Shown here in pieces: positions 33,090 to 57,733 of a stretch of 64,000 nt of DNA (the stretch's first letter is position 1; each line of letters opens with the position of its first letter). The stretch comes from a virus (taxonomy: Duplodnaviria; Caudoviricetes): the IMG/VR virus record IMGVR_UViG_3300005077_000001, positions 160,001 through 224,000 of that record. The stretch is one strand, 5' to 3'. Both the position numbers and the translations under genes were made by a program. The notes beneath the pieces were generated by a model. It had not been told where the DNA came from and did not search any database. It saw only the letters and a list, made by a program, of their open reading frames with translations.

Positions 33090-33331
33090 TATTAGATCCT
33101 ACTTATAAGATAGATAAAGAGAACAGAAAAGTACGCCCTGAGAAAAAAGGATATGTAGTTTTTATTGAATTGAAAACTGGAGATAGAATTATAGGTAGGA
33201 TAGTGAAGTCAGATTCTACAACTCTATATGTAGAAACTTTAAATGAACCTAAAATTATAAAAGATGTGCATCGTGTATTTATAAAAAGGAGATTTGTAAT
33301 ATTGGAAGGAGGCAAAGGTGACAGAAAATAA
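33086..33331 (+). CDS. Small Sm/LSm/Hfq-like fold protein
   Basis: VFIELKTGDRIIGRIVKSDSTTLYV (Sm1-like) and VFIKRRFVI (Sm2-like). Confidence 0.45.
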   Translation: MILDPTYKIDKENRKVRPEKKGYVVFIELKTGDRIIGRIVKSDSTTLYVETLNEPKIIKDVHRVFIKRRFVILEGGKGDRK

Positions 33332-34706: not shown

Positions 34707-35851
34707 TGTCAGATACTACAACAAAAGGAATTAAATTTCATAGCTCATTTTTGGATGGTTCAGGCTATGGGAAATTTGGTAGAGATTTTTTAAAATTACT
34801 AATTAAAAAAAACATCCCTGTTTCAACAGGTATTGTTACTTTTGAGAAGGAAAATCAAAGACCAAATTTAGGGGATTATGGAAAACAAATTGAAGCATTA
34901 TCGGAAGTTAATATACAGTCTGATATTATATTGAGTGCTTTAACCCCAGATATAGCTATTAGGTTTATTGACCCGTCAAAGGTAAATATTAATTGGTTTT
35001 TTTGGGAATGTCAAGAAGGGATTCACCCTCTATGGGCCGATTGCTTGCAGAAGTTTGATGCTATAATAACTAGTTGTGAATCAGCTAAGCAATGCCTAAT
35101 TTCTTCTGGTATTCAAACTCCTATTTATGTTGTTCCGGTTAATATGGAGTTTAATAAATACATCCCAAAAGAAAAGCCCAATTTGGATGATACATATAAT
35201 TTTTATTCAATTTTTCAATGGCAAGAAAGAAAAAACCCATTTGGGTTACTTAAAGCTTACTTTAGAGCTTTTAGTGATAAAGATAACGTTATGCTTGTTC
35301 TGAAAACTTATTTAACTAGAATGCAGAATGATTTAAATCAACAGGATATGATAAAGAACTATCTTAATGGGTTAAAACAAACTATGCAATTTAATAAGGG
35401 ATTTCCTAAAGTCTATTTAATTACAGATGTATTGTCTGACGAAGAAATAGAAAATATGCATAATGAACTAGATTGTTATGTGTCTATGGATAGAGGAGAG
35501 GGGTGGTCTCTTCCTTGTGAAAATGCTATGCTTGCTGGCAATCCTGTTATAATTCCTAAGCATACTTCTTATTTAGACTATACAAATGAAGATTTAGTCT
35601 ATTACATAGAAGGTCAATTGGAACCAACATTTGGACTTACTCCATTTTACCCTGGTGATATTTGTACTTTTTTCAATCCTAGCATTCTTGAGGGCGCTGA
35701 AAGAATGAGGTATGTGTTTGAAAATCGTGAAGAAGCTTTCGAAAAAGGAGCTAAATCAAGAGAGTATATAATGCAGAATTTTAATGAGGATAAAGTGTTC
35801 AACACTTTTGTTAAGTCTATTATTGATATAGTTAAATCTAAAAGGAGGTAA
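34706..35851 (+). CDS. Glycosyltransferase family 4 (GT-B)
   Basis: SGYGKFGR; FQWQERKNP; DRGEGWSLPCENAMLAGNPVI. Confidence 0.88.
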   Translation: MSDTTTKGIKFHSSFLDGSGYGKFGRDFLKLLIKKNIPVSTGIVTFEKENQRPNLGDYGKQIEALSEVNIQSDIILSALTPDIAIRFIDPSKVNINWFFWECQEGIHPLWADCLQKFDAIITSCESAKQCLISSGIQTPIYVVPVNMEFNKYIPKEKPNLDDTYNFYSIFQWQERKNPFGLLKAYFRAFSDKDNVMLVLKTYLTRMQNDLNQQDMIKNYLNGLKQTMQFNKGFPKVYLITDVLSDEEIENMHNELDCYVSMDRGEGWSLPCENAMLAGNPVIIPKHTSYLDYTNEDLVYYIEGQLEPTFGLTPFYPGDICTFFNPSILEGAERMRYVFENREEAFEKGAKSREYIMQNFNEDKVFNTFVKSIIDIVKSKRR

Positions 35852-36303: not shown

Positions 36304-38307
36304 ATGCCTACGGCATTAATAACTGGGGTTACAGGGCAGGACGGGTCTTATTTAGCTGAATTATTGTTAGAAAAAGGGTATGAGGTTTATGGAGTTGTAA
36401 GGCGTGTTGCTATAGATGATGACAAGAGGTTTTGGCGTATAAATAATATTAAAGATAAAATTAATATTGTTGGTGCTACTATGGAAAACTACGCAAGCCT
36501 TATCAAAATAATTGCTGAAACAAATCCAGATGAAGTATACCACTTAGCTGCTCAAAGTTTTGTTGCACATTCATTTGAAGATGAATTTTCTACTATGCAG
36601 ATAAATATAAACGGAACACATTATTTGCTATCTGCTATTGAAAGGTTATGCTTAAAGACTAAGTTCTATTTTGCTGCTACCAGTGAGATGTTTGGTAATT
36701 CTCCTGCTCCTCAAGATGAAGGAACTCCTTTTATGCCAAGAAGTATTTACGGAATATCCAAGCTTACCTCATTCCAACTTACTAAAAATTATCGTGAAGC
36801 TTATGGTATTTTTGGATGTTCTGGTATACTTTTTAACCATGAATCTATTTTAAAAAATAGCCCTATAATACTAAAGAATGTAGTGGGGGAAGTAGATATA
36901 CTACCTATTGAAGATCTTTTTAGAACTGAAAATCATAAATATGAAGGCATCTTAGACAAATATAAGACATGTGAAGTATGGGATGGGGATAATTGGACTA
37001 GAATTATTAAAGGATCTTGTTATAAAGATATGAAGAAAGAAATTAATTTGATACAAACGGTATCATCTTGTTGTGAAACAACCCTTGAGCATTCTTTCTT
37101 TGATAACAACGGCGATGAAATAGAAAATAAAGCTTTGAAGATCTCAGATACTCTATATAATGCTTTCTATCCTTCTGATGAAGGTTTTCTTAATCCTGAT
37201 TTAAATTTATGTAAATTTTTAGGATTTGTTGTTGGGGATGGTTACATTCCAGAGGATGGGTGTTCTATTAGGCTTACTGGAATAGATAAACAACAATTGA
37301 TAGAGTATGCTAATTTATTATGTGGTATATTTGGATTTACTTATAAATGTAGTACTTGGGGTCCGGGGCAGTTTGATGGGTGTACAAAAGATATTTGGCA
37401 ATTGGAGATAAATGTAAACTCTTATTTTGGCAAATGGTTGCGAGGAGAAATTTATACATTAAGGAGTTCAGAAAAAAAAGTTCCTAAATTTATATTAAAT
37501 GGTTCTACTGAATCTAAAAAGCAGTTCTTCGATGGCTATTATGACGCTGATGGAAGAAAATCTGGGAATGAAAGATATCTATATAAAGGGTTTACTACAA
37601 AATCTGCTACCTTATGCTTAGGTTTACTTTATATTATGAAGTCCTTTTCTATTCAAGAACCTAAATGTAAATGTGAATATAGAAATGGAAAAAGATATTA
37701 CAGAGTTCAATTCAGATGTGACTATGAAACATCTAGAGGAAACTCTGTAATGAAAAATCTAAATGAAATAATTAGTATATATCCTACAGAATCAGAAGAC
37801 GGATGGTTTTATGACATACAAACAGAAAGCCAATCTTTTGCTACTGGTCCTAATTTAATTAAAATACATAATTCTCCGAGACGTGGACTTGAGTTTGTAA
37901 CAAGAAAAATCACAGATGGTGTTGCTAGAATAATGTACGGGTTGCAAGATCACATAGAGTTAGGTAATCTAGATGCAAAACGTGATTGGGGTTATGCTAA
38001 AGATTATGTGGAGGGTATGTGGTTAATGCTGCAACAAGATGAACCGGATGATTATGTGCTAGCTACCGGAGAAACTCACTCAATTAGGGAATTTTGTGAA
38101 GAGGCATTTGGTTATTTAGATATGGATTACAATGATTACGTAGTAGTAAATCCTAAATTTTATAGACCAGCTGAAGTCCATCAGTTGTGTGGAAATGCTT
38201 CTAAAGCTCAAAGCATGTTAGGGTGGGAACATACAGTAGGGTTTAAAGAACTCGTTATAAGAATGGTAGAATCAGACTTGAAACGATATAAGGAGGAAAC
38301 GATATGA
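36304..38307 (+). CDS. gmd: GDP-mannose 4,6-dehydratase interrupted by an intein
   Basis: GVTGQDGSYLAELL, HLAAQSFV, YGISK, GILFNHE|intein|SPRRG, GNLDAKRDWG, FYRPAEV. Confidence 0.95.
   Translation: MPTALITGVTGQDGSYLAELLLEKGYEVYGVVRRVAIDDDKRFWRINNIKDKINIVGATMENYASLIKIIAETNPDEVYHLAAQSFVAHSFEDEFSTMQININGTHYLLSAIERLCLKTKFYFAATSEMFGNSPAPQDEGTPFMPRSIYGISKLTSFQLTKNYREAYGIFGCSGILFNHESILKNSPIILKNVVGEVDILPIEDLFRTENHKYEGILDKYKTCEVWDGDNWTRIIKGSCYKDMKKEINLIQTVSSCCETTLEHSFFDNNGDEIENKALKISDTLYNAFYPSDEGFLNPDLNLCKFLGFVVGDGYIPEDGCSIRLTGIDKQQLIEYANLLCGIFGFTYKCSTWGPGQFDGCTKDIWQLEINVNSYFGKWLRGEIYTLRSSEKKVPKFILNGSTESKKQFFDGYYDADGRKSGNERYLYKGFTTKSATLCLGLLYIMKSFSIQEPKCKCEYRNGKRYYRVQFRCDYETSRGNSVMKNLNEIISIYPTESEDGWFYDIQTESQSFATGPNLIKIHNSPRRGLEFVTRKITDGVARIMYGLQDHIELGNLDAKRDWGYAKDYVEGMWLMLQQDEPDDYVLATGETHSIREFCEEAFGYLDMDYNDYVVVNPKFYRPAEVHQLCGNASKAQSMLGWEHTVGFKELVIRMVESDLKRYKEETI
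36844..37872 (+). mobile_element. Intein (343 aa) with LAGLIDADG endonuclease domain
   Basis: In-frame insertion splitting the conserved FNHE-SPRRG. Starts with Ser, ends IKIHN, +1 residue is Ser. Endonuclease motifs FLGFVVGDG and FFDGYYDADG. Confidence 0.93.
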
Positions 38308-38754: not shown

Positions 38755-39022
38755 AATTACTTTTACACATCCTGACACTGGTGAGCAAGCACAAGGATGG
38801 ACAACGCAAACTATAGATTCAAATGAAACACCTGTTTATTTAGAATTTACTGAAGAAGAAAAACGTAAACTTATTAGTAATATTGTTTCTCAAATAACTA
38901 AATTTGATGATCTATTTATTGTACCAAATGGAATTGAACAATCAGCAATTAATTTATTTTTACCTACTAAACAAGAGACCACAGAAGAGATTAAACCTCA
39001 AGAACCGCCTATGGAGGAGTAA
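38732..39022 (+). CDS. Hypothetical protein
   Basis: Coupled ORF. Confidence 0.55.
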   Translation: MRVKFAYKITFTHPDTGEQAQGWTTQTIDSNETPVYLEFTEEEKRKLISNIVSQITKFDDLFIVPNGIEQSAINLFLPTKQETTEEIKPQEPPMEE

Positions 39023-39891
39023 TGATTAGCATTATAACGACATTAAAAAATCGTGCTAATTTATTACGATATGGATTGGAAGGAATTCTTAGACAAGATT
39101 ATTGGGGTAAGAGCGGAGATACTATTGAATTAAATATAGGGGATGGTGGTAGTGATGATGGATTAGATGATTTATTATTAGATATGAGTAGGCATCCGTC
39201 CATCTCCATAATAAAAAAGTATACTATTGATAGAACAAAAAGTGTTTATAATCATACACAAAATTGTCCAGCAGAAGAATTAAATATGCTTGTTAAACTT
39301 AGTAATAATCCTACGGTTATTAAATTAGATCCCGAAGCTGTTTTAGTTGATAATACTTTCATTAGTGAATCTATGGAAATATTACAAAAGTATCCTGAAT
39401 CTATAATTATGCCTTTTCCTCTACATTGCTATAAGTTTAACTATGATAATTTTGATGATATCCTATTACAATGGGGGAAGTATTCTTTTAAAACACATAT
39501 ACAAGAAGATAATGCTAGAGATACTAATGTATACTACCTAGCTGTATTCAATAAAGACCCGTTCATAAAACTAGGTGGCATTGATGAGCAGTTTATTCAA
39601 TTTCGTGGGTCAGAAGATAATCACTTCCTTAATCAATGGCAACAACACTATGGGTATGATTCAAGAATTACTTTATTAAATAGAATAGTGCTACATTTAT
39701 ACCATGATGAATTAGGGAATGGTCATATCCCTACTAATTTGATGATGCCTATACACCAAGGACAAGAATTAGCGCAAAGATTGAAAAACACTCCTCCAAA
39801 TTTCGGTAGAGATTGGGGTAGGTTTAATAGTATAACAAAAAAAGAACATTTTTATAAAGGAAGGAAAGTTTATGAAAGTAAACCGTTCTAA
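39022..39891 (+). CDS. Glycosyltransferase family 2-like (GT-A)
   Basis: ISIITTLKNRANLL, DGGSDDG, KLDPE, LGGIDEQF...EDNHF, LHLYH. Confidence 0.85.
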   Translation: MISIITTLKNRANLLRYGLEGILRQDYWGKSGDTIELNIGDGGSDDGLDDLLLDMSRHPSISIIKKYTIDRTKSVYNHTQNCPAEELNMLVKLSNNPTVIKLDPEAVLVDNTFISESMEILQKYPESIIMPFPLHCYKFNYDNFDDILLQWGKYSFKTHIQEDNARDTNVYYLAVFNKDPFIKLGGIDEQFIQFRGSEDNHFLNQWQQHYGYDSRITLLNRIVLHLYHDELGNGHIPTNLMMPIHQGQELAQRLKNTPPNFGRDWGRFNSITKKEHFYKGRKVYESKPF

Positions 39892-39943
39892 ATAAGTAAC
39901 CTTCTTTCTATTGTACATATATCGTAATAAGGAGAATACTTCT

Positions 39944-40930
39944 ATGGATAAATGGACACAAGAGGAAGATAGAATACTACAACAGTTTTACCACAACCAC
40001 ACTAAAGAATTGTTGTTAATAAAATTAGAAAAACGAACTTGGAATGCCATTTGTAATCGTGCACGATTACTAAATTTAAAAAGACAATGTACAAATCTAC
40101 AAGGTAATCTATGTGGTAATCAGGTAAGGAAAGACAGGAAATTTAATTCGTTGAATGTTGATTTTACTAATATAACTGATGAAAAACATTCCTATATTTT
40201 AGGATATTTAGCGGCAGATGGTAATATTTATAGAAATAAATTAGGGATGGTTGTTGCTGAACAAGATTATGATTTTATTTTATTATTGAAACAATGGTTT
40301 AATGAATCTTCTGATTTAAAATATTCAAAAATATCAGCTGGGAAATATCAGGGGATTAGATATTATGGTCAGTATGCTCTTAATGTTCATAGTAAAATTT
40401 TAGTAGACCAGTTATCAGAAAAAGGAATTGTTCCTAATAAAACTAAAATATTAAAACCACCAAGAGGTATTCCTTCTAAATTAAGACGACATTGGGTAAG
40501 GGGGTATTTTGATGGTGACGGGAGTTTTTATTTGTCTAAACAAGGGTACATCTGCTTTAATATACTAGGCACCGAAGATATTTTGGAATACATATTAAAG
40601 AATTTTAATGAAATATGTGAGGCAGATTTTAAAATTGGATGGGACAGGTCTACTAGACAATTTGGAACTTGTGGAAATAAAGCATTATCTTTTCTAGATT
40701 GGATTTACACTGATTGTAAGTATTATTTACCAAGGAAATATGATAAATATACAAGATTACGTTCAAAAGTTGCTTTTACTAAAAGCAATAGATGGTCCAA
40801 CGAAGAGATAGACACCTTAATTCAAAATTATAAAAATATGACGAAGGGTGGATTAATTAAACTGCTACCACAAAGGTCCTGGTGTGCTATATGCACAAAA
40901 GCTCTAAAACTAGGATTAAAAAGAAAATAG
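39944..40930 (+). mobile_element. Free-standing LAGLIDADG endonuclease with N- and C-terminal Myb-like repeats
   Basis: Start moved to the ATG at 39944 after AAGGAG. ILGYLAADGN, WVRGYFDGDGS; repeats KWTQEEDRIL and RWSNEEIDTL. Confidence 0.85.
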
Positions 40931-40938
40931 GAGATTTC

Positions 40939-41865
40939 ATGAATATTCTTATACACGGTGCTAATTACTATGAGTACTGTCAAGCTACTTTTGTGAATGG
41001 AGCAAAGACTTTATCCCATGATTGTTTTAATTTTAATCCGAATTATAATAACTATACAAAACCTTATCGAGGACAGGATATTTCTTTTTATATAGACTTC
41101 TATCCTGGTCATATGTCTCCACCAGATATAGATGTTCCTAAGATTTTAGTATGGACATATGATGCTGACGATGGTCCACAGCCATTTAATCCAAATAAAT
41201 TTCCACAATTTGATTTATATTTTATTAGAGAATTAAAAAGTAATTTTGGAGATAAAGTATACCCAATGAATTATGGAATTGAAGATAGGTATTATTGTAT
41301 CACCGAAAAAGAAGATAAGCCATTTTCTGAACGGTCTGTTAATTGCTCTTTTTACGGTAGTTTTGGTGGAGCAAATACGCTAATGGGTAAGAGAGAACAA
41401 AAACTAGACTTCATTGAACATAACTTAACTAAGTGGAAACCTGTTATTGGTAGGCAGTGGGCTTATAAATCAGATCCAGACCCTTATTGGTCTGAGTGGG
41501 TTAATGGGAGATTTTCTCATGATACTTCTTACTTTAAAGCTTTAGCCGATTCGAAAATTATATTGAGTCCATCTGGGGGTGGTTCTGAAGGGGGTAGGCA
41601 TTACGAAGCAATTGCTGCTCATAGTTTACCATTAATTGAAAAGAGTCATAACATAAACATATATCCTCATTGGGAAGATATGTTTCCAGAAATTGTATGG
41701 GATAAAGTAGAAGAATGTGTAAGTAAAGTAGATTATTATCTTTCTAATTTGGAAGAAGCTCAGGTTTTAGCAGATAAGATATTTGAGTTTGGAAAAAAGA
41801 ATTTAAGAAGTATTAATCGGGCGCAGTATATTTTAGATAGGATGAAGGAGCATAGCTTATTATAA
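40939..41865 (+). CDS. Glycosyltransferase-like protein (CgeB/exostosin-type C-terminal motif)
   Basis: Start moved to the ATG at 40939 after AGGAG. YFKALADSKIILSPSGGG...GRHYEAIA. Confidence 0.65.
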   Translation: MNILIHGANYYEYCQATFVNGAKTLSHDCFNFNPNYNNYTKPYRGQDISFYIDFYPGHMSPPDIDVPKILVWTYDADDGPQPFNPNKFPQFDLYFIRELKSNFGDKVYPMNYGIEDRYYCITEKEDKPFSERSVNCSFYGSFGGANTLMGKREQKLDFIEHNLTKWKPVIGRQWAYKSDPDPYWSEWVNGRFSHDTSYFKALADSKIILSPSGGGSEGGRHYEAIAAHSLPLIEKSHNINIYPHWEDMFPEIVWDKVEECVSKVDYYLSNLEEAQVLADKIFEFGKKNLRSINRAQYILDRMKEHSLL

Positions 41866-42875
41866 TGGCAAAAAATCCTAATTGGACGGAAAAAGAATTA
41901 GATATCCTTATTAAGAATTATAATCATTTAAGGATGAAAGACTTATGCAAACTATTTTTTAATAGGACTCCAGAATCTATAAAGATAAAAGCAAATAGAA
42001 TAGGTTTATCCAGAGATTTTTATAATTATTGGTCCGAGGAAGAAGATAGTCTTTTATTAGAATTTTATAATAAAGCCAGTATAGAGGAAATTAGTAATAA
42101 GCTACATAGAAGTAAACAATCTATAAAATCTAGGGCAACCTTTTTAAAAATTACTAATCCAAAAACAAAAGAAGATGTCTTAGATTTTACTATTATAGAT
42201 ACAGAAGAAAAAGCCTATTGTTTAGGATTTATAGCAGCAGATGGCTGTTTAAGCAGATATAAAGAAGAAAACAATTATAATTTACGAATAAAATTATCTA
42301 TTAAAGATGAATCTCATCTTATAAACTTATGTAATATTATAAGTCCTAAATCTAAAATACGATATTTGGAACAGAAAGGATTAAAATACATAGAATTTTA
42401 TATTACCCATCCTAACTTAAAATTTTTATGTTTGCACAATATATATCCTAGAAAAACATGGAATCCTAAACCCCCTTCTGCTTTAAAATATCATTTAATT
42501 CCTCATTATATTAGAGGTTATTTTGACGGTGATGGGCATATTGGAGTCATAAATAACAATTACAAAAAACTAAACTGTACTATAATAACTAAGCATAATC
42601 CTGGAATTAATATAAATCCTATTTTAATGTTTATTAAGGATGTTTTTATAGAATTATTTTATAATTGCAGTGTGAGTCTTACAACAAATAATAAGGTAGA
42701 TAGATTAGTTATTTCTGGAAGAAATGCTTTCTATTTTGTTAATTGGATTTATAAAAATTCTAACTTATATCTATTTAGAAAGTATGATATAGCAAAAAAT
42801 TATTTTATGGAAGTATCAGACATTGAAAATTATTTTAATAATAGGAGGAGATATGATAATAAAACAAATTGTTGA
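41865..42875 (+). mobile_element. Free-standing LAGLIDADG endonuclease with two N-terminal Myb-like repeats
   Basis: CLGFIAADGC, YIRGYFDGDGH; repeats NWTEKELDIL and YWSEEEDSLL. Confidence 0.85.
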
Positions 42876-43542
42876 AAATAATATAGGTATAACTGATGTG
42901 GTAAATGATGGATCTTTAACCTATAAAGGATATGTTCACCACAGTGGTTTTGATTTTGTTCCTGAATTATTAGGTAATTTTTGTAAGTTTATTAATGAGT
43001 TTTGTAATAGATTTGGTATTACAGATAATTCAAAAATAATAGAATTCGGATGTGGTTCTGGAGTTTTAGTAAATTGTTTTCCTAATGACTGCCTTTATGT
43101 TGGATTGGATGGTAATTTAGAGGGAGGAAAATTTATTAAGGAAAAAAATAATAAAAATAAAAATTTTATTTCTGTAGATTTAACTAAGGATTTTTGTTTA
43201 GAACCTTATTTGAAATATGATGCTTTGTTTTCTTTTGATTTTATGGAACACTTGGATTTAGAAAACATCTCTATTGTATTAAATCATATGGATAACTTAT
43301 TGAATAAAAATGGAATTATGTTATCATTAATAGATACTATTGAATTAGAAGCCCATCGAAGTAATCATCCTTTACCTTGGTGGATTGATAAAATAAATTC
43401 ACTAACTAATTGGCAATTAGTAGATGCTTGTTGGAGACATCAAAATAGAGAAAGCTATTGGTGGCAACTTTTTGAAAAAACAATTCCTCCTTTTTGGCAA
43501 CCAAATATAAACAATCAAATGATTGTTATTTATAGGAAATAG
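42853..43542 (+). CDS. Class I SAM-dependent methyltransferase
   Basis: Start moved to the ATG at 42853 after AGGAGG. IIEFGCGSG, YVGLD, FDFMEHL, LLNKNG. Confidence 0.85.
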   Translation: MIIKQIVENNIGITDVVNDGSLTYKGYVHHSGFDFVPELLGNFCKFINEFCNRFGITDNSKIIEFGCGSGVLVNCFPNDCLYVGLDGNLEGGKFIKEKNNKNKNFISVDLTKDFCLEPYLKYDALFSFDFMEHLDLENISIVLNHMDNLLNKNGIMLSLIDTIELEAHRSNHPLPWWIDKINSLTNWQLVDACWRHQNRESYWWQLFEKTIPPFWQPNINNQMIVIYRK

Positions 43543-43551
43543 GAGATAAAG

Positions 43552-44262
43552 ATGGATTACAAAAATAAAATAAATAGTTTGTTAGGTGAAGATCTGCTTA
43601 TATTCAAAGGGGATAAGGAGTCAGAAGAATTCATAGATAAATATAATGCTATAGATACTACAGAGTTTGATAATAAGATAGCTGCATTTCATGAAGATTC
43701 TAATAATATACTCTATATGAAAGCAATTTATAAATTTGCTAAATGTGCAGAAGTAACATCGGTAGTAGAGTTGGGTACTAGAGGATGCTATTCTTCTCTT
43801 GCTTTTTTGGAAGCTATGGGAGCAGAAGGAGAATTGTATAGTTTTGACCCAGTAATAGGTGGTAACTCTTTACTAAAAGCAGATGAAGTAAATCCTAGAT
43901 GGAATAGATATGAAAAATTTGATTATGATGGTTATGCAGAATTATCTGATAGCATAAAAAATTTTGATATGCTTTATATTGATACTGACCCCCATTCCTA
44001 TGATCAGCTATTTCAGCAACTTAGAAATTGGTGGATTAATAATTTAAAGTCTGGTGGCTATCTGCTGTTGGATGACCATTCCCCATTGCACCAAGTAGAG
44101 ACTTTTGGTAATAGACCTGCTGGATTATTTAATGTTAATGCTCAGTTTGGAACATTACGTGCAACCCTAGAGTTTATTGAAGAGAGATATGATGATATAC
44201 ATTGGGCTTTTAGTGTTGAAAATAATTATTCTAATGGGATTGCTATAATAAAGTTTAAATAA
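43552..44262 (+). CDS. Class I SAM-dependent methyltransferase (Methyltransf_24-like)
   Basis: VVELGTRGCYS, LYSFDP, DMLYIDTDPHSY, LKSGGYLLLDDH. Confidence 0.8.
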   Translation: MDYKNKINSLLGEDLLIFKGDKESEEFIDKYNAIDTTEFDNKIAAFHEDSNNILYMKAIYKFAKCAEVTSVVELGTRGCYSSLAFLEAMGAEGELYSFDPVIGGNSLLKADEVNPRWNRYEKFDYDGYAELSDSIKNFDMLYIDTDPHSYDQLFQQLRNWWINNLKSGGYLLLDDHSPLHQVETFGNRPAGLFNVNAQFGTLRATLEFIEERYDDIHWAFSVENNYSNGIAIIKFK

Positions 44263-45132
44263 ATGTCTTTCTTAATGAATAATGTTAAATGTGAATACGT
44301 ACACTACAATCCAAATCCTAATGCCAAATACGGGATTGCGTTATCTTTCGGTAAGCGTAACTGGGTAGATACTATCTTTCAAGGACAATTAGTTAATAAC
44401 ACTTTCTATAATAAAGAGTTAATTGAATTATCTTGTTGTAGTTATATTAAATTTCCAGATGAATGGATGGAAGAAGCTAAAAAATTATTTAATTATATAA
44501 TATACGTAGATACTGATTTAGGTAAAGAAAATGGTACAACTTTACAATCAAATTCAGCTATTTATCCATTAATGCAAAATGAAAATATAAAAGCTGTTTG
44601 GCACGGAGATGGTGATACAGTAATTATAAGAGATGTATATTTGTATGCTTTTTCAAATATGCTTTTAGATACTAATAAAGTAATTTTAACGACTAATGTT
44701 TCTTACCAATACAACCATCAACAAGGAACTAGATACGAATTTGCTTTATTGGGAAGTAATACCCACGTTGTAAGACAATTTGGTGGGATGTTTGTACTAA
44801 ATAGAAAACGTGCTTTAGAAACTGGATATTTTCCAAGACCTTGTATGGGTCATTTTGAATTTGATGGGTATACCCATTTTATTAATTGCGGACTAACCTT
44901 GGAAAAAGATGCTATAATTGTACCTCGTTTGCCATTTGACCAACGAGGAGAAGAGTGGTTATTGTATAGTATTGATTTTCATTCTGGTGTACTACATTGT
45001 AGTAATGCTTATAATCCTAATGTTGAAACTACAAAAGAAGATAGGAAACTTAGACTTTTGAGAGCGACGGGGTTTAATAAATGGGAGAATATAGCAACAG
45101 GAATTTTAATGGGGGTGGATTATGGACTTTAA
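44263..45132 (+). CDS. Uncharacterised protein, probable GT-A-like glycosyltransferase (paralog A)
   Basis: VWHGDGD (DxD) motif; colinear similarity to 45122-46048; glycan gene context. Confidence 0.45.
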   Translation: MSFLMNNVKCEYVHYNPNPNAKYGIALSFGKRNWVDTIFQGQLVNNTFYNKELIELSCCSYIKFPDEWMEEAKKLFNYIIYVDTDLGKENGTTLQSNSAIYPLMQNENIKAVWHGDGDTVIIRDVYLYAFSNMLLDTNKVILTTNVSYQYNHQQGTRYEFALLGSNTHVVRQFGGMFVLNRKRALETGYFPRPCMGHFEFDGYTHFINCGLTLEKDAIIVPRLPFDQRGEEWLLYSIDFHSGVLHCSNAYNPNVETTKEDRKLRLLRATGFNKWENIATGILMGVDYGL

Positions 45133-46048
45133 TCTATTAGATGTTTCCTATTCGTATTTACATTTTAATCCAAATTCTAAGGCCAAGTACGGATTAGGAA
45201 TTGGTATACATACTACAAACTTTTTAGATGGTGTATTTTTTCTTAACTATATAAATAAATATTGGTATAATCGTGAATTCATAGATATTGGAATTTGTAC
45301 TTCTTTACCGATTCCTGAAAATTATTTAGAAGATATGAAATTGAATGCGAATTACATTGTAAAGTGTGAGCAAGATAGAGGGAAAGAATTAGGTACCATG
45401 GATAATTTAAATGGAGCCTTCTTTCCTTCCTACCAAAATGAATCTGTGAAAACAATTACTCATGTTGATGGAGATGAAATTATTCTAAATGCACAGTACT
45501 TTTTTGGTAATGCAATTATGCTTTTAGATTCTAATAAAGCAATTCTTAACACTCAGGAAACGTTTTATTATGACCAAGAAACAATGACCGAACGGCCGGC
45601 TGAGTATAATGAAGCGTGGAAAACTAAATTTAATCATTTGTTAATTATTAATAAGGAACGTGTACCATTTGAAACTTACTATCCTATAAAGTGTTATGGG
45701 GATTTTCATAGTGATTTATATCGTCATTTTATTGATTCAGGATATACTATGGATGATGTGCTGCTACTAAAACGAAAAGTCTTCAATTGTGATATGCCTA
45801 CTAATTTTCTACACGGGTTTAATTTCCAATTGGGGATGGTGCATGCCACTAATCAAATACAGTATCCTGAAACTGAGGATAGAAAGATACGTATACTTAG
45901 ACTACACTCTGACTCTATTTGGGAAGATAACTCAGTTGGGGCACATCGTTGGTGGGATGAAGAAAAAGGATTAAAACCACCTTATAAAGGATATAATCCA
46001 AAATTATATAGCGTAAAACCAAAAAAGGATACATATGATAACAGATAG
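45122..46048 (+). CDS. Uncharacterised protein, probable GT-A-like glycosyltransferase (paralog B)
   Basis: ITHVDGD (DxD) motif; paralog of 44263-45132. Confidence 0.45.
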   Translation: MDFNLLDVSYSYLHFNPNSKAKYGLGIGIHTTNFLDGVFFLNYINKYWYNREFIDIGICTSLPIPENYLEDMKLNANYIVKCEQDRGKELGTMDNLNGAFFPSYQNESVKTITHVDGDEIILNAQYFFGNAIMLLDSNKAILNTQETFYYDQETMTERPAEYNEAWKTKFNHLLIINKERVPFETYYPIKCYGDFHSDLYRHFIDSGYTMDDVLLLKRKVFNCDMPTNFLHGFNFQLGMVHATNQIQYPETEDRKIRILRLHSDSIWEDNSVGAHRWWDEEKGLKPPYKGYNPKLYSVKPKKDTYDNR

Positions 46049-46069: not shown

Positions 46070-46786
46070 ATGGTAAATATTATTATTTCTATTCCAAAAA
46101 GTGGAACCCATTTTTTAAATGAAGTTTTAATCCACGCATTGGATAATAATTGCGATTATTCTTTTAGTAAGCAAACATTTGGTGGGAATCTACAAGAGGT
46201 TAGAGATGGATTAAATAAAGTTTTAGATAATAATAAGAAATCTAATCTCAATTACTTAGCTCATTGGGCTTATTCTGAAGAATTGGCAGATTGGCTAATT
46301 GATACAGATTACAATGTGTTTTTTATTTATAGGCACCCTTTAGATGTTGCAGTTTCTTTTATAGAAGGTGCTCTATTGAAGCTCTTTGATGACCCTATTG
46401 CAAATAAGATAAGAAGAATAAACAATAAGGATTTAAATTATATCTGGTTATTGGAAGGCTATCGTAATATAAAACACCCAAATGCTGTTGGATTGAGGAA
46501 AATAATAGAAGAGAGATTAAAGTGGGCCGAGATATTTTTTAATGTTAAGTATAGGCATTTGTATGATATAAATCATTGTAATAAACTACAATTATGTATG
46601 TCTAATTTAATTGGATGTGATACTAGCCACCTTTGTAATGCTGTAAATGAGGCTAAAAATACTATTACCAAAACTTTTAGAAATCCTGGTGTTGATAATT
46701 GGAAAAATGAAATGCCTGAACATATACAAAATAAGTATATATCTTCTTTAAATGACTTAATTGTGGATATGGGATTCCAATGTTAA
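46070..46786 (+). CDS. PAPS-dependent sulfotransferase
   Basis: 5'-PSB SIPKSGTHF, 3'-PB IYRHPLDVAVS, C-terminal FRNPGVDNWK. Confidence 0.85.
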   Translation: MVNIIISIPKSGTHFLNEVLIHALDNNCDYSFSKQTFGGNLQEVRDGLNKVLDNNKKSNLNYLAHWAYSEELADWLIDTDYNVFFIYRHPLDVAVSFIEGALLKLFDDPIANKIRRINNKDLNYIWLLEGYRNIKHPNAVGLRKIIEERLKWAEIFFNVKYRHLYDINHCNKLQLCMSNLIGCDTSHLCNAVNEAKNTITKTFRNPGVDNWKNEMPEHIQNKYISSLNDLIVDMGFQC

Positions 46787-47289
46787 AACAGGTAATATGG
46801 CTATTTGGAAAATCTGGAACTGGAAAAACTACATTAGCTACTGCTTTATCAAATAAGATAAACGTTCCTTTACTAGATGCAGATAAGATTAGATTAGTGT
46901 TGGGAATTGAACCAGATTTTTCTCTTCAAGGTAGATTAAAATTTCAAAAAGAATTTAGAAAGTATATAAAAAACTATGATGCTCAGACTGTTGTGGTAGC
47001 ATCAATAACACCACTACAAGAAATGAGAAATAAAAACAGAAAAGAATTTAAAAATTATTATGAAATATATCTTCATTGTAGTATGGATAAACTAATAGCA
47101 CGAGATCCAAAAAGATTATATGCAAAGGCGCTCAGAGGAGATATTACTAATTTTACAGGGTTATCTTCAGTGTTTGAAAAACCTTATAGTAATTATCCAG
47201 ATTTATACATAGATACGGGGAACATGAGTATTGATTCATCTTTGAAAATTGTATATGATTCCTTAATAAAAAAATACGGAAAGGATTAA
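46780..47289 (+). CDS. cysC: Adenylyl-sulfate (APS) kinase
   Basis: WLFGKSGTGKTT, LDADKIR, ASITP, RDPKRLYAKALRGDITNFTGLSSVFEKP. Confidence 0.92.
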   Translation: MLKQVIWLFGKSGTGKTTLATALSNKINVPLLDADKIRLVLGIEPDFSLQGRLKFQKEFRKYIKNYDAQTVVVASITPLQEMRNKNRKEFKNYYEIYLHCSMDKLIARDPKRLYAKALRGDITNFTGLSSVFEKPYSNYPDLYIDTGNMSIDSSLKIVYDSLIKKYGKD

Positions 47290-47291: not shown

Positions 47292-48275
47292 ATGAAAATA
47301 CTTGTTACAGGAGGCTCCGGTTACATAGGCTCAGTGCTGATTAAATATTTATTTAATTATGGCAAAGAACTAGGTGATTTAAAACCAATTGAAAAAGTTA
47401 CAGTTGTTGATTCCTTATTATTCAATCAAAATACTCTAGGACAATATGCAGATAATCCAAAGTTTGAATTTATTTGTGGGGATGTTTCTGATACTAGTCT
47501 GATGTGGCCTCTGTACGAAGAAGCAGATGTAATAATTCCTCTTGCGGGACTAGTTGGATTTCCTATTTGTGCTAAGCATCCTGACTTAGCTTGGAAATTA
47601 AATTGTGATGTAATAGCGGATATGGTTGAGTTCCTATTTGTCCATGATTGGTTAAAGAATAAGAAGATAATCTATCCCTGCACTAATAGCGGTTATGGAA
47701 GTTATCCTGATGGAAGAATGGTTACTGAAGAAGATAAATTGAATCCTATTTCTGTGTACGGTCAAAGTAAGGTAGAAGCAGAGAGTATTTTGTTAGCAGC
47801 AGGAGCAGTTTCTCTTCGTCTTGCGACAGTTATGGGGTACAGTCCTTTTATGAGAGTAGGGCTTTTAGTTAATACCTTTTGTTGGAACGCGTCTAAACAA
47901 AGGAATATAGTACTGTATGAAAAAACCGCTAGACGTAATTATATACACGTGGAAGATGTATGCCAAGCATTCATATTAGCTTTACATAATTATGATTGGG
48001 TAAAAGGAGAAGCATTTAATGTAGGCTTATCCACTGCTAATTTAAATAAAGAAGAATTAGCTAAGAAAATAGCAGAGCATACGGAATTACATATTGTTGA
48101 AGCTCCTTTTATGACTGACCCAGACCAACGTGACTACTTGGTATCTAATGAAAAAATAGAAACAAGGTTGGGATTTAAACCAAAATGGGATTTAGATAGA
48201 ACTATAAATCAATTACTAAAATTTTATAAAGGGGTATCTGAGCATTCATCTAATGTTTATTTTGGAACAACTTAA
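47292..48275 (+). CDS. NAD-dependent epimerase/dehydratase (extended SDR)
   Basis: TGGSGYIGS, IIPLAGLVG, YGQSK. Confidence 0.9.
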   Translation: MKILVTGGSGYIGSVLIKYLFNYGKELGDLKPIEKVTVVDSLLFNQNTLGQYADNPKFEFICGDVSDTSLMWPLYEEADVIIPLAGLVGFPICAKHPDLAWKLNCDVIADMVEFLFVHDWLKNKKIIYPCTNSGYGSYPDGRMVTEEDKLNPISVYGQSKVEAESILLAAGAVSLRLATVMGYSPFMRVGLLVNTFCWNASKQRNIVLYEKTARRNYIHVEDVCQAFILALHNYDWVKGEAFNVGLSTANLNKEELAKKIAEHTELHIVEAPFMTDPDQRDYLVSNEKIETRLGFKPKWDLDRTINQLLKFYKGVSEHSSNVYFGTT

Positions 48276-50408: not shown

Positions 50409-51452
50409 ATGGAAAAGGACTATATAGGGGAACACCCCGCTAAGCAGGTACCTAAAGTTGGATTTAAAAGAGGAATAAGATATCAACCTCGAATTTTAGT
50501 CTTAGGCGGTAATGGTTTCTTCGGTAAAAACTTACGCCCATATTTAGAATCATATTGGCCAAATGCTGATATCATAGATGTTCAAGGTAGACGCTTTTTT
50601 GATTTGACCATTCAAAATGAATGTAGGATTTGCTTTGAGCGTGCTGCAAGCCAAGGACCAATTAATATAGTAATTAATCTTGCTGCTTATAGCGGTGGTA
50701 TGTTTGAAAACATGAATCATCATGCTAGATTCTATTATCAGAATTCTATGATTAATTTGAATGTGATGGATGAGTGTGCTAGATATAAAGTAAACAAATT
50801 ACTTGTGCCTATTGGAGGTTGTAGTTATCCAGATACTAACGAGTACAACGGTGGCACATATACTGAAGATGAGATATGGAATGGGTTTGCAAATAAGAAT
50901 AGCTATGGATATTCGATGGCAAAACGTAATGCAATAGTAGGAGCATTGGCTTATAGTTCAGAATTCAATTTGAATACCACTGTTGTAATTCCTACGAATC
51001 CAATTGGACCGTGGGATAATGTAGATGAAAAAAATGCACATCTTCCGATGGCATTAATAGGTAGGTTTTTAGAAGCAATTGCTGAGGGCTATTCGACAGT
51101 AACTGTTTATGGAAGTGGTAGACCAGAAAGAGACTTTTTATACATAGGAGATATAGTGAGCTTATATCCTGCAATTATTGATCACTATGGGGAGATAGGC
51201 CCTTTAAACATTAGTTCTGGTAAAGGAACAACTATTGCAGAGATGGCAGAGCTTATAGCAAAAACTACAGGGTTCACCGGTAAAATTCATTTTGATAGAA
51301 GTAAACCAGACGGCCAGATGAAAAAGGTCCTTGATAACAGTAAGCTCTTAGAATTTGTGAATGAGTATAGCATCAAGTGGGAACCTATGGGGTTAGAAGA
51401 AAGTATTGAAACGACTGTAGAATGGTATCGTAAAAGAATTCTAGGAGAATAA
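50409..51452 (+). CDS. fcl: GDP-L-fucose synthase-like epimerase/reductase
   Basis: GGNGFFG, NLAAYSGG, CSYP, YSMAKR, PTNPIGPWDN, HLPMAL, GSGRPERDF, FDRSKPDG. Confidence 0.85.
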   Translation: MEKDYIGEHPAKQVPKVGFKRGIRYQPRILVLGGNGFFGKNLRPYLESYWPNADIIDVQGRRFFDLTIQNECRICFERAASQGPINIVINLAAYSGGMFENMNHHARFYYQNSMINLNVMDECARYKVNKLLVPIGGCSYPDTNEYNGGTYTEDEIWNGFANKNSYGYSMAKRNAIVGALAYSSEFNLNTTVVIPTNPIGPWDNVDEKNAHLPMALIGRFLEAIAEGYSTVTVYGSGRPERDFLYIGDIVSLYPAIIDHYGEIGPLNISSGKGTTIAEMAELIAKTTGFTGKIHFDRSKPDGQMKKVLDNSKLLEFVNEYSIKWEPMGLEESIETTVEWYRKRILGE

Positions 51453-51453
51453 A

Positions 51454-52320
51454 ATGACTACTATAGACTTGGAATATGTTATTACAAATCCACAATCTTA
51501 TATAATTGTTATAGGTTGTGATGGGTTTATTGGTAGTGCTTTTGTAAGATTTTCCAAATCTAATCCCGATTTTGAATATAAATTTATTTTTATTAATAGA
51601 AAAAATTATAAAGAGTGGAAAGAGTATATAGAAAAATACCAATTAGAATTTAAATCTACTATTTGGGCAGCGGGATTGTCGTCTAAAATATATTGTGAAT
51701 CTAATTTTGAATGGTGCTGGGAACAGAATGTGGATAATTTAATATTGGCAATTGATGATTTTCCTGCTGATTTGTTTGTTTATATTTCTTCATATGATGT
51801 ATATCCTAGTTTTTGGATGCCGGAAAAAAAGGAAGAGAATGCAGAAATAGATATTAATTTGCTATCTAACTACGGGAAAACAAAACTTGAAGGAGAAAAT
51901 ATTGTTAAGAGATGGGCATATAATAGTTATTTAATATTAAGACCAAATGCTTTTGTGGGGGATGGACTAAGAAAAAATATAATTTATGATTTATTGCAAG
52001 AAGAAAAAAATATTTATGTAACTTTAGATTCTATTTTTCAATTTATAAATACAGATGTTTTTGTGGAAATACTTTTAACTTTTTTAATTAATAATTATAG
52101 AGATACTATATTTAATATATCTGGTTCTAAATCAATAAGTGTAAGTTCTATTTTATCTATTATGGGAGTGAATACAGATGAGGTCATATTTAATAATTCT
52201 TCAAAAATAATAGCCGAAATGAACATATTAAAATTACAAAAAAGTATTGTAGATAATTATAACTTGCTTACAAGCGAAGATTACATATCTAATTGGAGAA
52301 GAAATGAGATGGTCAAATGA
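51454..52320 (+). CDS. NAD(P)-dependent sugar reductase/epimerase (RmlD-like SDR)
   Basis: GCDGFIGS, YISSYDVY, NYGKTKLEGE, ILRP. Confidence 0.8.
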   Translation: MTTIDLEYVITNPQSYIIVIGCDGFIGSAFVRFSKSNPDFEYKFIFINRKNYKEWKEYIEKYQLEFKSTIWAAGLSSKIYCESNFEWCWEQNVDNLILAIDDFPADLFVYISSYDVYPSFWMPEKKEENAEIDINLLSNYGKTKLEGENIVKRWAYNSYLILRPNAFVGDGLRKNIIYDLLQEEKNIYVTLDSIFQFINTDVFVEILLTFLINNYRDTIFNISGSKSISVSSILSIMGVNTDEVIFNNSSKIIAEMNILKLQKSIVDNYNLLTSEDYISNWRRNEMVK

Positions 52321-54294: not shown

Positions 54295-54448
54295 AGATTG
54301 GATTATCAGCATAGAAGATAATCCCAAAGATAATAAACAAGTTATTGTGACTTACAAAATGATAGATGGGACTACTGCAAAAGCATACATTAGTAAATCA
54401 CCCATTAAAACTAAGAAGAAAAAAAATAATGAATTCAAAATTAAATGA
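54212..54448 (+). CDS. Hypothetical protein (true start possibly TTG 54263)
   Basis: Overlaps the rnhB 3' end; AAGGAG at 54245-54250. Confidence 0.4.
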   Translation: MELQSITGLGLKELENTLANYTKLHEDKDWIISIEDNPKDNKQVIVTYKMIDGTTAKAYISKSPIKTKKKKNNEFKIK

Positions 54449-55828: not shown

Positions 55829-56815
55829 TTGATGATTATATCTAGTTCTCCTACTCGTTTGAGCTTAGGCTCAATGGATCATTCGCCGTTCGCTGAACGA
55901 TTTGGTGGAAATGCTTTAAACATAGCTATTAATAAGAGAATTTATATTCTCATACGAAAACGTAATAATATTGAAGATTTTAAATACCGAATTTCATACT
56001 CTAAAACAGAGTTATGTAATGACATAGATGAGATAGAGCATCCTTTAGTGAGAGAGTCAATAAGATATGTAAATGTAAAAGATCCTATCGAAGTCGTTTA
56101 TTCTTCTGATGTTCCAACTCAATTAGGTATGGGAACTAGTTCTTCTATGACAGTTGCTTTACTCAAAGCTCTGTACTATTTTAATAATACAGCCATATCG
56201 TCTGAATTACTATTTGATAGGGCTTACCTTATCGAACGAGAATTAGTAAAAGAACAAGGCGGTTTTCAAGATTTTAGCTGTACTTGGGGAGGATTAAATT
56301 ACTTAGAAGGAAGTCCTTATAAGATTAATCGCATACCTGTAGTTTTATCTATGGATAAATTAGAAGAATTGAAGCAACATATACTCCTACTATACACAGG
56401 AAAAAGGGAAAATTCCAATGATGTATTGAAAGAACAATTAAAAAAAATGAAGAAAGGTCAAACTCTAGAAGAGTCCTTGAGAATCAAATCTTTAGTATCG
56501 GAAATGTATTCTTTATTCTTACAGCCTGATTTTCATCCAATGCACTTATGCCCTGCTATTAAGGAAGGATGGGAATTAAAAAAGAAGTTATCATCCACAA
56601 TGACTTCTGAATTAATAAATAATGTCGAGCATGTAATTTATGGTATTGATTCTTATGCAGGGGTAAGATTAGTAGGTAGTGGCGGCGGTAGAGGATTAAT
56701 CATGGTTATTACTAAACCGAGAAATCATGATGAGATTATAAGAAAAACTAAATTAAAATCACTAGATTTTGATTGGGATTTTGACGGATGTAGAGTCAGA
56801 AAGGTAGAGGGATAA
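55829..56815 (+). CDS. hddA: GHMP kinase, D-glycero-D-manno-heptose-7-phosphate kinase (HddA/WcbL)-like
   Basis: SSPTRLSL, SDVPTQLGMGTSSS (GHMP ATP loop), GGFQD, LLLYTG..RE, VGSGGGRG. Confidence 0.75.
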   Translation: MMIISSSPTRLSLGSMDHSPFAERFGGNALNIAINKRIYILIRKRNNIEDFKYRISYSKTELCNDIDEIEHPLVRESIRYVNVKDPIEVVYSSDVPTQLGMGTSSSMTVALLKALYYFNNTAISSELLFDRAYLIERELVKEQGGFQDFSCTWGGLNYLEGSPYKINRIPVVLSMDKLEELKQHILLLYTGKRENSNDVLKEQLKKMKKGQTLEESLRIKSLVSEMYSLFLQPDFHPMHLCPAIKEGWELKKKLSSTMTSELINNVEHVIYGIDSYAGVRLVGSGGGRGLIMVITKPRNHDEIIRKTKLKSLDFDWDFDGCRVRKVEG

Positions 56816-57733
56816 ATGGAAGGTGTGTCAATATGCTTGACTCTTAAAAACAGAGCACACTTACTAAAATATTGCTTGGAGTCTATTTCTAGACAAGATA
56901 CCAAATTAGATATCGAGATATGCGTTATAGATGGATTTTCTACAGATGGGTTAATCCCACTATTGGATAGATACAGCGACTTGTTTACAATTAAATATGC
57001 ATGTGCTGATAGAACAAAATCAGATATTCCTATTTTAACAAATAATCCTGCCAAAGAACATAATTTAAATGTGCGTTGGATGGCGTCTTATGATACTGTT
57101 ATTAAGATAGACCCAGAGATTGTAATAAAAGACCCTTGGACCATACAAGAAATTTACGATTTAGTATGTGCAGATTATAATAAGCATTATAATGCGAGAG
57201 CTTGGTTCACAAACGGGGATTCTTGGTATTCTAATTATGAAGATATAATTGATAACTTTTATATGCACCCAATGGTTGAGAGTAATGAGTTTTTTAGTAG
57301 GAGCCAGTTTTATTTTTGTAGTGGATTTTCTCGTACAAGTTTTATAAAAATGGGTGGAATAGAAGAACTGATGGTAAGTGGGGACGGGTTTGATGATACT
57401 ACATGGTTATCAAATTGGCAAAATCATTATAATAATGGAGGGCTTATAGAGGTAAGTGGGCAATGTATTCATTTGTGGCATTCTGCAACTCCAAACCACA
57501 GTAGTAGTTTATTTGAATTAAATAGAAGGAAATATGAATTATTTAAAAATAGGAAGCAAGCTAATAGCATTTGCTTAGAAGAAAAATCAAATGGGGAACT
57601 ATCTATAATTGAGTGTACTCGTAATTGGGCAAACCCAGAGATGCTTAGTACTGTCTACACTATTAAGGATGGCAAAGTAATTAATGAAGAAAAGATTACA
57701 GAAGATGCTATAAGTTTGGATTTATCTATATAA
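56816..57733 (+). CDS. Glycosyltransferase family 2-like; paralog of 39022-39891
   Basis: VSICLTLKNRAHLL, DGFSTDG, KIDPE, MGGIEE...DDT, IHLWH. Confidence 0.85.
   Translation: MEGVSICLTLKNRAHLLKYCLESISRQDTKLDIEICVIDGFSTDGLIPLLDRYSDLFTIKYACADRTKSDIPILTNNPAKEHNLNVRWMASYDTVIKIDPEIVIKDPWTIQEIYDLVCADYNKHYNARAWFTNGDSWYSNYEDIIDNFYMHPMVESNEFFSRSQFYFCSGFSRTSFIKMGGIEELMVSGDGFDDTTWLSNWQNHYNNGGLIEVSGQCIHLWHSATPNHSSSLFELNRRKYELFKNRKQANSICLEEKSNGELSIIECTRNWANPEMLSTVYTIKDGKVINEEKITEDAISLDLSI

What the first reader, a model, noticed from the sequence alone, without database searches (positions are those of the whole stretch)
46070..47289. Coupled sulfotransferase + APS kinase embedded among glycosyltransferases
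Seen: the two genes overlap (46780-46786), have intact PAPS-binding and P-loop motifs, and sit between two putative GTs and a sugar epimerase. No ATP sulfurylase is in the window. Established: CysC turns APS into PAPS. Inference: the phage diverts host APS from assimilation or dissimilatory reduction into PAPS for its own sulfation reaction. This points to a biosynthetic tailoring role rather than a generic sulfur auxiliary-metabolic role, and hints at a host that makes APS but little PAPS.
Basis: partly seen in the sequence, partly recalled or inferred. Interest (0 to 1): 0.7.

Follow-up and report, generated by a model that had tools for sequence, protein, structure and literature searches.

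The report
Jumbo-phage sugar sulfation gene pair
An uncultured 256-kb phage carries a sulfate-transferring enzyme and the kinase that makes its sulfate donor inside a large sugar-building gene cluster that related giant phages also carry, so it probably makes a sulfated, methylated sugar chain; no activity, target or host has been shown.

Summary
Observation confirmed. 46070-46786 is a SULT-fold sulfotransferase (Z 15.9) and 46780-47289 an APS kinase (TM about 0.9), overlapping by 7 bp. The 97%-complete genome has no sat, cysD or cysH match. Both upstream genes look like GT-A enzymes; the downstream 'epimerase' is a Cj1427-type GDP-heptose dehydrogenase homologue. The pair is adjacent in 7 of 10 relatives, always in a sugar cluster where context is visible, and the kinase forms its own clade of about 42 proteins. 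Of 13 other viral APS-kinase contigs, 11 have a sulfotransferase match, 1 has Sat and none has CysH/CysD, favouring PAPS supply for sulfation over the published 'assimilatory AMG' reading. Caveats: this copy has motif deviations (RKG to RNP; KGLY to KRLY; clade-wide loss of the ENI Asn); a second sulfotransferase elsewhere in the genome has lost catalytic residues; two megaphage relatives have the kinase with no sulfotransferase within 10 kb; the closest solved folds sulfate non-sugars. The host is unknown, and 'host lacks cysC' is unsupported (28 of 29 candidate-group genomes have the domain). The scan noted this theme in at least 8 other phages.

The parts
46070..46786 (+). Sulfotransferase ST1, 238 aa, soluble, cytosolic-SULT-like fold; member of a small subfamily of about 13 proteins
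   Evidence: PF00685; model and fold search; subfamily
46780..47289 (+). APS kinase (CysC-like), 169 aa, short archaeal-like type, in a distinct clade of about 42 proteins
   Evidence: PF01583; PDB hits 8a8h and 7yq0; model and fold; tree SH-aLRT 98
44263..45132 (+). Putative GT-A-fold glycosyltransferase (DGD motif), paralogue of the next gene
   Evidence: ESM Atlas; BLASTP 33%; no Pfam hit
45122..46048 (+). Putative GT-A-fold glycosyltransferase (DGD motif)
   Evidence: ESM Atlas; homologues in five related loci
47292..48275 (+). SDR enzyme closest to PDB 6VO6/6VO8 (C. jejuni Cj1427 GDP-heptose dehydrogenase, by my own knowledge of the entry)
   Evidence: E 1.4e-71 versus 4e-19 for the next hit
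42823..43542 (+). SAM methyltransferase (Methyltransf_23)
43552..44262 (+). SAM methyltransferase (Methyltransf_24)
   Evidence: present in all 9 related loci
40882..41865 (+). Glycosyltransferase-like protein (PF13524)
39022..39891 (+). GT2-like glycosyltransferase
   Evidence: just under the cut-off; homologues
33318..34706 (+). GT4 glycosyltransferase
34706..35851 (+). GT4-like glycosyltransferase
   Evidence: weak
36304..38307 (+). GDP-mannose 4,6-dehydratase-like enzyme interrupted by a LAGLIDADG-containing insertion (intein-like)
50409..51452 (+). GDP-fucose-synthase-like epimerase/reductase
51454..52320 (+). RmlD-like SDR
55829..56815 (+). HddA/WcbL-like GHMP sugar kinase
   Evidence: orthologue in G001 at 49%
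56816..57733 (+). GT2 glycosyltransferase
61462..62409 (+). NAD-dependent sugar epimerase/dehydratase

Best explanation
The kinase phosphorylates host-made APS to PAPS, and the sulfotransferase uses PAPS to sulfate a product of the surrounding phage sugar cluster. That cluster (about 8 glycosyltransferase-like genes, 2 methyltransferases, and GMD-, GFS-, Cj1427- and HddA-like enzymes) would build an O-methylated glycan from GDP-deoxyhexose and/or GDP-heptose. All enzymes are soluble, so the acceptor is cytoplasmic, most plausibly a virion protein (about 0.35 overall for that last step). Shown: gene identity, folds, motifs, synteny, absence of sat/cysD/cysH matches. Inferred: activity, APS coming from the host, glycan as acceptor, virion as carrier.
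For: The 3'-phosphate-binding R88 and S96 are invariant in ST1, so its donor should carry a 3'-phosphate such as the kinase adds. ST1 is directly upstream of the kinase in 7 of 10 relatives and 3.5 kb away in one more; a second sulfotransferase (PF03567) follows the kinase closely in 6 of them. All 7 long ST1 loci with DNA hold glycosyltransferase and methyltransferase homologues of this cluster. The kinase keeps the SITP and FTG motifs of APS kinases, and its nearest solved relative by single-sequence search, MtAPSK, is active with His in place of the canonical Asn (PMC10322725). No Sat, CysD or CysH match in the genome; no Sat in relative G001. Among 13 other viral APS-kinase contigs, 11 have a sulfotransferase match, 1 Sat, 0 PF01507. 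No clear transmembrane segment in any cluster protein (highest 19-residue hydropathy 1.77). Nine proteins of the structural region are 18-26% Ser+Thr against a median of 12%.
Against: No activity data. The nearest solved folds are steroid/phenol and tyrosylprotein sulfotransferases (Z 14-16); heparan sulfotransferases score 11-12. This copy of ST1 has RNP for RKG and the kinase has KRLY for KGLY. The genome's second sulfotransferase (genome 42224-43036) has lost the PSB Lys and the catalytic His. Two megaphage contigs carry the clade kinase in the same sugar cluster with no sulfotransferase within 10 kb, and one ST1 locus (L008) has no kinase in 16 kb. The synteny is partly shared ancestry (capsid 59% identical in G001). 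The enrichment over a rough control is not significant (10/13 vs 8/18, Fisher p 0.14).
Confidence: 0.58

Rival explanations
1. The kinase supplies PAPS, but ST1 sulfates a non-sugar acceptor (protein tyrosine or a small phenolic or alcohol), and glycan sulfation, if any, was the job of the second sulfotransferase ST2.
For: Top structural matches are cytosolic SULTs and tyrosylprotein sulfotransferases. Relatives carry two unrelated sulfotransferase families side by side.
Against: Fold rank at 15% identity does not predict the acceptor. ST1 is found only among sugar genes, once between a DegT aminotransferase and a GT17-like gene.
Confidence: 0.13
2. The sulfated sugar is attached to phage DNA bases (hypermodification against restriction).
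For: The cluster lies between primase/helicase and DNA polymerase, the GT4 hits 'GT4-conflict', and a dCMP deaminase is present. Earlier scan notes propose this for phiRSL1-like phages (unchecked).
Against: No thymidylate-synthase/hydroxymethylase (PF00303) and no TET/JBP match in the genome, so there is no obvious base handle. Four-base palindromes are strongly depleted (GATC 0.52, CATG 0.62, TCGA 0.63, GCGC 0.70 of expected), as expected of DNA still exposed to restriction. About 8 glycosyltransferases suggest a multi-residue glycan.
Confidence: 0.09
3. The module is decaying in this particular phage: the genes are inherited from a functional ancestor but one or both enzymes are impaired.
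For: Copy-specific substitutions G to P (ST1) and G to R (kinase); long branch for this kinase (1.29); ST2 displaced and lacking Lys/His; a split DUF1848 gene nearby.
Against: Both frames are full length; nearly all invariant columns of both families are kept; models are confident. Other clade members also vary at G112.
Confidence: 0.09
4. The kinase is not an APS kinase but 3'-phosphorylates another activated donor (as C. jejuni Cj1415 does for CDP-phosphoramidate), and the sulfotransferase fold transfers a non-sulfate group.
For: Best NCBIfam model is PRK05541 (112.5 bits), ahead of apsK (104.3), both under the cut-off. The clade replaces the ExN Asn by Tyr/Phe/His and has a private invariant Arg60. 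The neighbours resemble the Campylobacter capsule heptose locus (PMC11800397). The kinase persists without a nearby sulfotransferase in two megaphages.
Against: Ordinary cellular APS-kinase domains score 80-127 bits on PRK05541, so the hit is not diagnostic. The one clear member examined (L095, 170 bits) has SIFP and VVGID and a nucleotidyltransferase neighbour; the phage clade has SITP and FTG and does not group with it (L095 is a long branch). No PF00391 (Cj1418-type kinase) match in the genome.
Confidence: 0.07
5. The kinase is a generic auxiliary metabolic gene that boosts host assimilatory sulfate reduction, and its position is incidental.
For: This is the published reading of viral cysC (bioRxiv 10.1101/2021.01.05.425418; PMC9529941).
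Against: No cysH, cysD or sat match in this genome and no PF01507 in 14 viral APS-kinase records; the gene is held within a sugar cluster in every relative with visible context.
Confidence: 0.04

Closest known systems
Viral cysC 'auxiliary metabolic genes' (Kieft et al., bioRxiv 10.1101/2021.01.05.425418; PMC9529941)
   Same: A phage-encoded APS kinase that clusters apart from cellular homologues.
   Different: Those papers file cysC under assimilatory sulfate reduction; the word sulfotransferase does not occur in the Kieft text. Here it is tied to sulfotransferases and a sugar cluster, with no cysH.
Campylobacter jejuni HS:2 capsule locus (Cj1415-Cj1430; PMC11800397)
   Same: HddA-like kinase, Cj1427-like dehydrogenase, GFS-like reductase, methyltransferases, glycosyltransferases and a CysC-fold 3'-kinase together.
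   Different: No Cj1418-type kinase or GmhA match, no export machinery seen; carries true sulfotransferase folds; the kinase has APS-type motifs; it is phage-borne.
Mycobacteriophage virion glycosylation (Freeman et al. 2023, cited through PMC12619734; full text not held)
   Same: Soluble phage glycosyltransferases proposed to decorate capsid and tail proteins.
   Different: Far larger cluster with its own nucleotide-sugar enzymes and a sulfation arm; the target here is not shown.
Bacterial sulfation cassettes with dedicated PAPS supply, e.g. rhizobial nodH + nodPQ (own knowledge; NodQ appears among plasmid hits)
   Same: A sulfotransferase encoded with its own PAPS-making enzyme to tailor a glycan.
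   Different: NodPQ includes ATP sulfurylase; this phage has only the kinase and must take APS from the host.
Archaeal-type APS kinases (A. fulgidus 7YQ0/7YQ1; M. thermolithotrophicus 8A8H) and cytosolic SULTs (SULT1B1, SULT7A1)
   Same: Best sequence and fold matches; catalytic core conserved.
   Different: About 33% and 15% identity; aromatic residue at the Asn/His position of the kinase; ST1 is about 45-55 residues shorter and has a private HP(W/N)AxG motif.

Membership tests
APS kinase (CysC, EC 2.7.1.25) | APS-kinase fold and Pfam PF01583 over cut-off | tested here: met
   89.6 bits vs 21.1; TM 0.88-0.91
APS kinase (CysC, EC 2.7.1.25) | P-loop GxSGxGK[ST]T and DxD..R motif | tested here: met
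   G10, S12, G15, K16, D33, D35, R38
APS kinase (CysC, EC 2.7.1.25) | APS-site Phe/Arg, SxP and lid RD.KGLY...FTG | tested here: met
   F47, R52, SITP, RDPK, FTG kept; G112 is Arg in this copy
APS kinase (CysC, EC 2.7.1.25) | Asn of the RxExN helix (sulfate contact, own knowledge) | tested here: inconclusive
   Phe here; Tyr 27, Phe 10, His 6 in the clade; His in active MtAPSK (PMC10322725)
APS kinase (CysC, EC 2.7.1.25) | NCBIfam apsK equivalog cut-off | tested here: not met
   104.3 vs 138.7 bits: a divergent homologue, not an automatic member
APS kinase (CysC, EC 2.7.1.25) | APS + ATP gives PAPS in vitro | not testable with these tools
   needs assay
PAPS-dependent sulfotransferase (SULT fold) | Fold | tested here: met
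   Z 15.9, 214 residues aligned, rmsd 3.7
PAPS-dependent sulfotransferase (SULT fold) | 5'-PSB loop Lys, catalytic His, 3'-PB Arg and Ser | tested here: met
   PKSGT K10, H65, R88, S96
PAPS-dependent sulfotransferase (SULT fold) | C-terminal RKGxxGxW motif | tested here: inconclusive
   R204 and W211 kept, KG replaced by NP in this copy only
PAPS-dependent sulfotransferase (SULT fold) | Sulfuryl transfer and acceptor class | not testable with these tools
   needs assay
Cj1415-type CDP-phosphoramidate kinase system | Partner glutamine kinase (PEP-utilizer domain) in the genome | tested here: not met
   no PF00391 match
Cj1415-type CDP-phosphoramidate kinase system | PRK05541 cut-off and SIF/VVG motifs | tested here: not met
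   112.5 vs 127 bits; SITP/FTG versus SIFP/VVGID in L095. Cj1415 itself could not be retrieved; that PRK05541 is its model is my own recollection
Phage DNA glycosyl-hypermodification | Hydroxymethylase or TET/JBP to make a base handle | tested here: not met
   no PF00303 or PF12851 match; a very divergent enzyme could be missed
Phage virion glycosylation | Soluble phage glycosyltransferases without membrane export machinery | tested here: met
Phage virion glycosylation | Glycan detected on virion proteins | not testable with these tools
   uncultured phage
Assimilatory sulfate-reduction AMG set | cysC together with cysH or cysDN/sat | tested here: not met

The most novel reading that the evidence does not exclude
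A lineage of jumbo and megaphages (contigs up to 647 kb) coats its virions with a sulfated, O-methylated heptose-containing glycan made by its own pathway, drawing on host APS through a lineage-specific kinase; more generally, most viral cysC genes would be PAPS suppliers for sulfation and not sulfur-assimilation AMGs.
Probability: 0.3. Interest if true: 0.78.

Novelty: new variant of a known kind. Interest (0 to 1): 0.5.

Why it matters
I found no paper describing a sulfated glycan made by a phage (four full-text searches combining phage or virus with sulfotransferase gave nothing relevant). If the reading holds, phage particles or infected cells carry a new type of surface chemistry, and viral cysC, widely counted as evidence that viruses drive sulfur assimilation, would be reassigned to biosynthetic tailoring. 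That second point can be tested at scale now by co-occurrence counts. The two small soluble enzymes are easy to express. The two-gene pair alone is ordinary biochemistry, and this scan has noted the same theme in at least 8 other phage genomes.

Tried and rejected
Single-sequence scans of viral contigs with ST1, the kinase and the Cj1427-like gene found nothing; alignments were needed. No ST1 match among GenBank phage records and only distant kinase matches, so no cultured relative was found. Host prediction failed: the PHP-GT4 fusion gave about 38% hits spread over Nitrospirota, Hydrogenedentota, Desulfobacterota and Omnitrophota; methylglyoxal synthase gave 62-69% hits over several phyla; a small zinc-ribbon protein was uninformative. 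No GmhA (PF13580) or CysQ-type PAP phosphatase (PF00459) match in the genome. No sequencing run was listed for the region. The 545- and 647-kb contigs could not be searched whole for a distant sulfotransferase. The papers on Cj1415, the 2013 DNA-modification prediction and mycobacteriophage glycosylation were not held. The 7-bp overlap was rejected as special evidence of coupling. The control set for co-occurrence (other P-loop kinases) is small and not clean; p 0.14. The kinase tree is the quick version, SH-aLRT only. No complex prediction was run, since no binding is claimed.

Full report
Setting. The window is bases 160001-224000 of a 256,335-bp virus record, estimated 97% complete, with a major head protein and replication genes (RecA, DnaB, primase). 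From 33318 to 62409 a tightly packed + strand cluster encodes two GT4-like, two GT2-like and one PF13524 glycosyltransferase, two methyltransferases, a GMD-like dehydratase, a GDP-fucose-synthase-like enzyme, two further SDRs and an HddA-like kinase, interspersed with homing endonucleases and RNase HII.

Observation. Overlaps are the norm here (18 of 39 junctions). The 238-aa protein passes PF00685; its model (pLDDT 93) matches sulfotransferases over its whole length, best SULT1B1 and SULT7A1 at Z 15.9. In the 14-member alignment H65, R88, S96 and W211 are invariant and K10 and R204 nearly so; they align with the PKSGT, KTH, RNxKDVAVS and RKG motifs of estrogen sulfotransferase. This copy alone has Pro in the RKG motif. 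The 169-aa protein passes PF01583 at 89.6 bits, folds as an APS kinase (TM 0.88-0.91) and is closest to archaeal APS kinases. It falls under the NCBIfam apsK cut-off. The two upstream genes are 33% identical paralogues with no Pfam hit but GT-A-like neighbours by features and structure, so 'putative GT' is fair. The downstream gene is more specific than 'epimerase': it matches PDB 6VO6/6VO8 at E 1e-71, which I know as C. jejuni Cj1427, one of the enzymes making GDP-heptose (PMC11800397). Neither Sat (PF01747) nor CysD/CysH (PF01507) is detected anywhere in the genome.

Relatives. ST1 belongs to a tight group of about 13 proteins separated by a score gap from some 1,700 general sulfotransferases. 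Ten contexts were read. In seven the kinase follows immediately (L006, L007, L009, L010, L011, L012 after a tandem ST1 pair, and the contig); in L014 it lies 3.5 kb on; L008 has none in 16 kb; L013 is too short, and its next gene weakly resembles the GT-A family. All seven long loci with DNA carry homologues of this cluster's glycosyltransferases and methyltransferase. Six also have a second sulfotransferase family (PF03567) just after the kinase. In this genome that second family sits far away (genome 42224-43036) and has lost the PSB Lys and the catalytic His. The kinase defines a clade of 42-43 proteins, none from NCBI genomes, one side of a branch with SH-aLRT 98. Two members on 545- and 647-kb contigs lie in the same sugar cluster without a sulfotransferase within 10 kb. 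L007 and L014 are IMG/VR viral records, and L007's phage shares the capsid protein at 59%, so the synteny reflects one lineage and not many independent pairings.

Independent comparison. Thirteen IMG/VR contigs with APS kinases of other clades were scanned: 11 have a sulfotransferase match at E<=0.001 (two of them under the family cut-off), 1 has Sat, none has PF01507. A rough control of 18 viral contigs with other P-loop kinases had 8; on the same two families 10/13 against 8/18 gives p 0.14, so this is a trend. In reverse, 20 of 27 viral contigs with a PF03567-like gene have no PF01583 match, and most of the other 7 are partial: many viruses sulfate without their own kinase, though most of these records are incomplete. 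Published work treats viral cysC as assimilatory.

Mechanism. The most likely reading (0.58) is that the kinase turns host APS into PAPS and ST1 sulfates a product of the sugar cluster. Shown: identities, folds, motifs, synteny and missing sat/cysH. Inferred: activity, acceptor and carrier. No cluster protein has a clear transmembrane segment and I saw no flippase or polymerase, so the acceptor is probably cytoplasmic. DNA is disfavoured because no hydroxymethylase or TET/JBP is detected and four-base palindromes are depleted. Virion proteins are the leading guess; nine structural-region proteins are 18-26% Ser+Thr against a 12% median, which is suggestive only. The sugar could be GDP-fucose-like or a heptose; GmhA is not detected, so early heptose steps would come from the host.

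Rivals. A non-sugar acceptor (0.13) cannot be excluded because the best folds are steroid, phenol and tyrosylprotein sulfotransferases. Decay in this copy (0.09) rests on the private substitutions and the degenerate ST2. A Cj1415-like non-sulfate donor (0.07) was taken seriously because PRK05541 is the top NCBIfam model and the neighbourhood resembles the Campylobacter capsule locus; but ordinary APS-kinase domains score similarly on that model, the one clear member examined has different motifs and neighbours, and no PF00391 partner is present. DNA modification 0.09; generic AMG 0.04.

Host. Not identified. Anaerobic ribonucleotide-reductase-like genes (read by eye, not tested) and weak best hits fit an anaerobe of sediment-type phyla, which may include sulfate reducers. 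But 28 of 29 genomes from those groups have an APS-kinase domain, many as fusions whose kinase activity is unknown.

Verdict. A real, conserved sulfation arm in a phage glycan cluster: a new variant of a known kind. Each part is familiar chemistry; the phage setting is undescribed in the papers I could search, but the scan has noted the same theme in at least 8 other genomes (unchecked notes, not counted as evidence). Interest 0.5.

Noticed in passing
genome G000:42224-43036 (L001:16225-17037): Second sulfotransferase (PF03567), homologous to the ST2 that follows the kinase in relatives, but displaced from the cluster and with the PSB Lys changed to Asn and the catalytic His to Asn; likely inactive or repurposed.
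   Followed up: yes
window 36304-38307: GMD-like dehydratase with an in-frame LAGLIDADG-containing insertion (intein-like), unusual for a sugar-nucleotide enzyme.
   Followed up: partly
window 49214-49399 and 49421-50008: DUF1848 gene split into two ORFs covering profile positions 1-53 and 68-262; pseudogene, frameshift or assembly error.
   Followed up: partly
window 54366-55286: Stand-alone terminase-ATPase-like (Terminase_6N, 306 aa) gene inside the sugar cluster, apart from the packaging region.
   Followed up: no
genome G000:28765-31035 (L001:2766-5036, minus): 756-aa PHP + GT4 fusion, 61% identical to a copy on L008 and about 38% to cellular homologues from Nitrospirota, Desulfobacterota and Hydrogenedentota.
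   Followed up: partly
genome G000:232094-232537 (L003:8094-8537): Methylglyoxal synthase, up to 68% identical to cellular enzymes, upstream of what looks like an anaerobic ribonucleotide reductase pair.
   Followed up: partly
genome G000:240506-241651 (L003:16506-17651): Weak NTP-transferase/ManC-like gene outside the cluster; could supply GDP-sugars.
   Followed up: partly
L242 and L243 (545- and 647-kb contigs): Megaphage-sized contigs share the sugar cluster and the clade kinase but have a different 190-aa Cys-rich protein after the kinase and no sulfotransferase within 10 kb.
   Followed up: partly
window 39911-40930, 41865-42875, 52304-53377: Several free-standing LAGLIDADG genes with repeated short Myb-like 'W..EE..LL' segments, a family repeated many times across this genome and its relatives.
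   Followed up: no
whole genome: Strong depletion of GATC, CATG, TCGA and GCGC although the genome encodes a Dam-type (D12) methyltransferase at genome 230312-231112; four tRNA genes.
   Followed up: partly
genome G000:102050-138997: One 12,315-aa ORF; covered by other reports of this scan.
   Followed up: no
L287 (G001:209813-210796): The HddA-like orthologue in relative G001 has one in-frame TGA.
   Followed up: no
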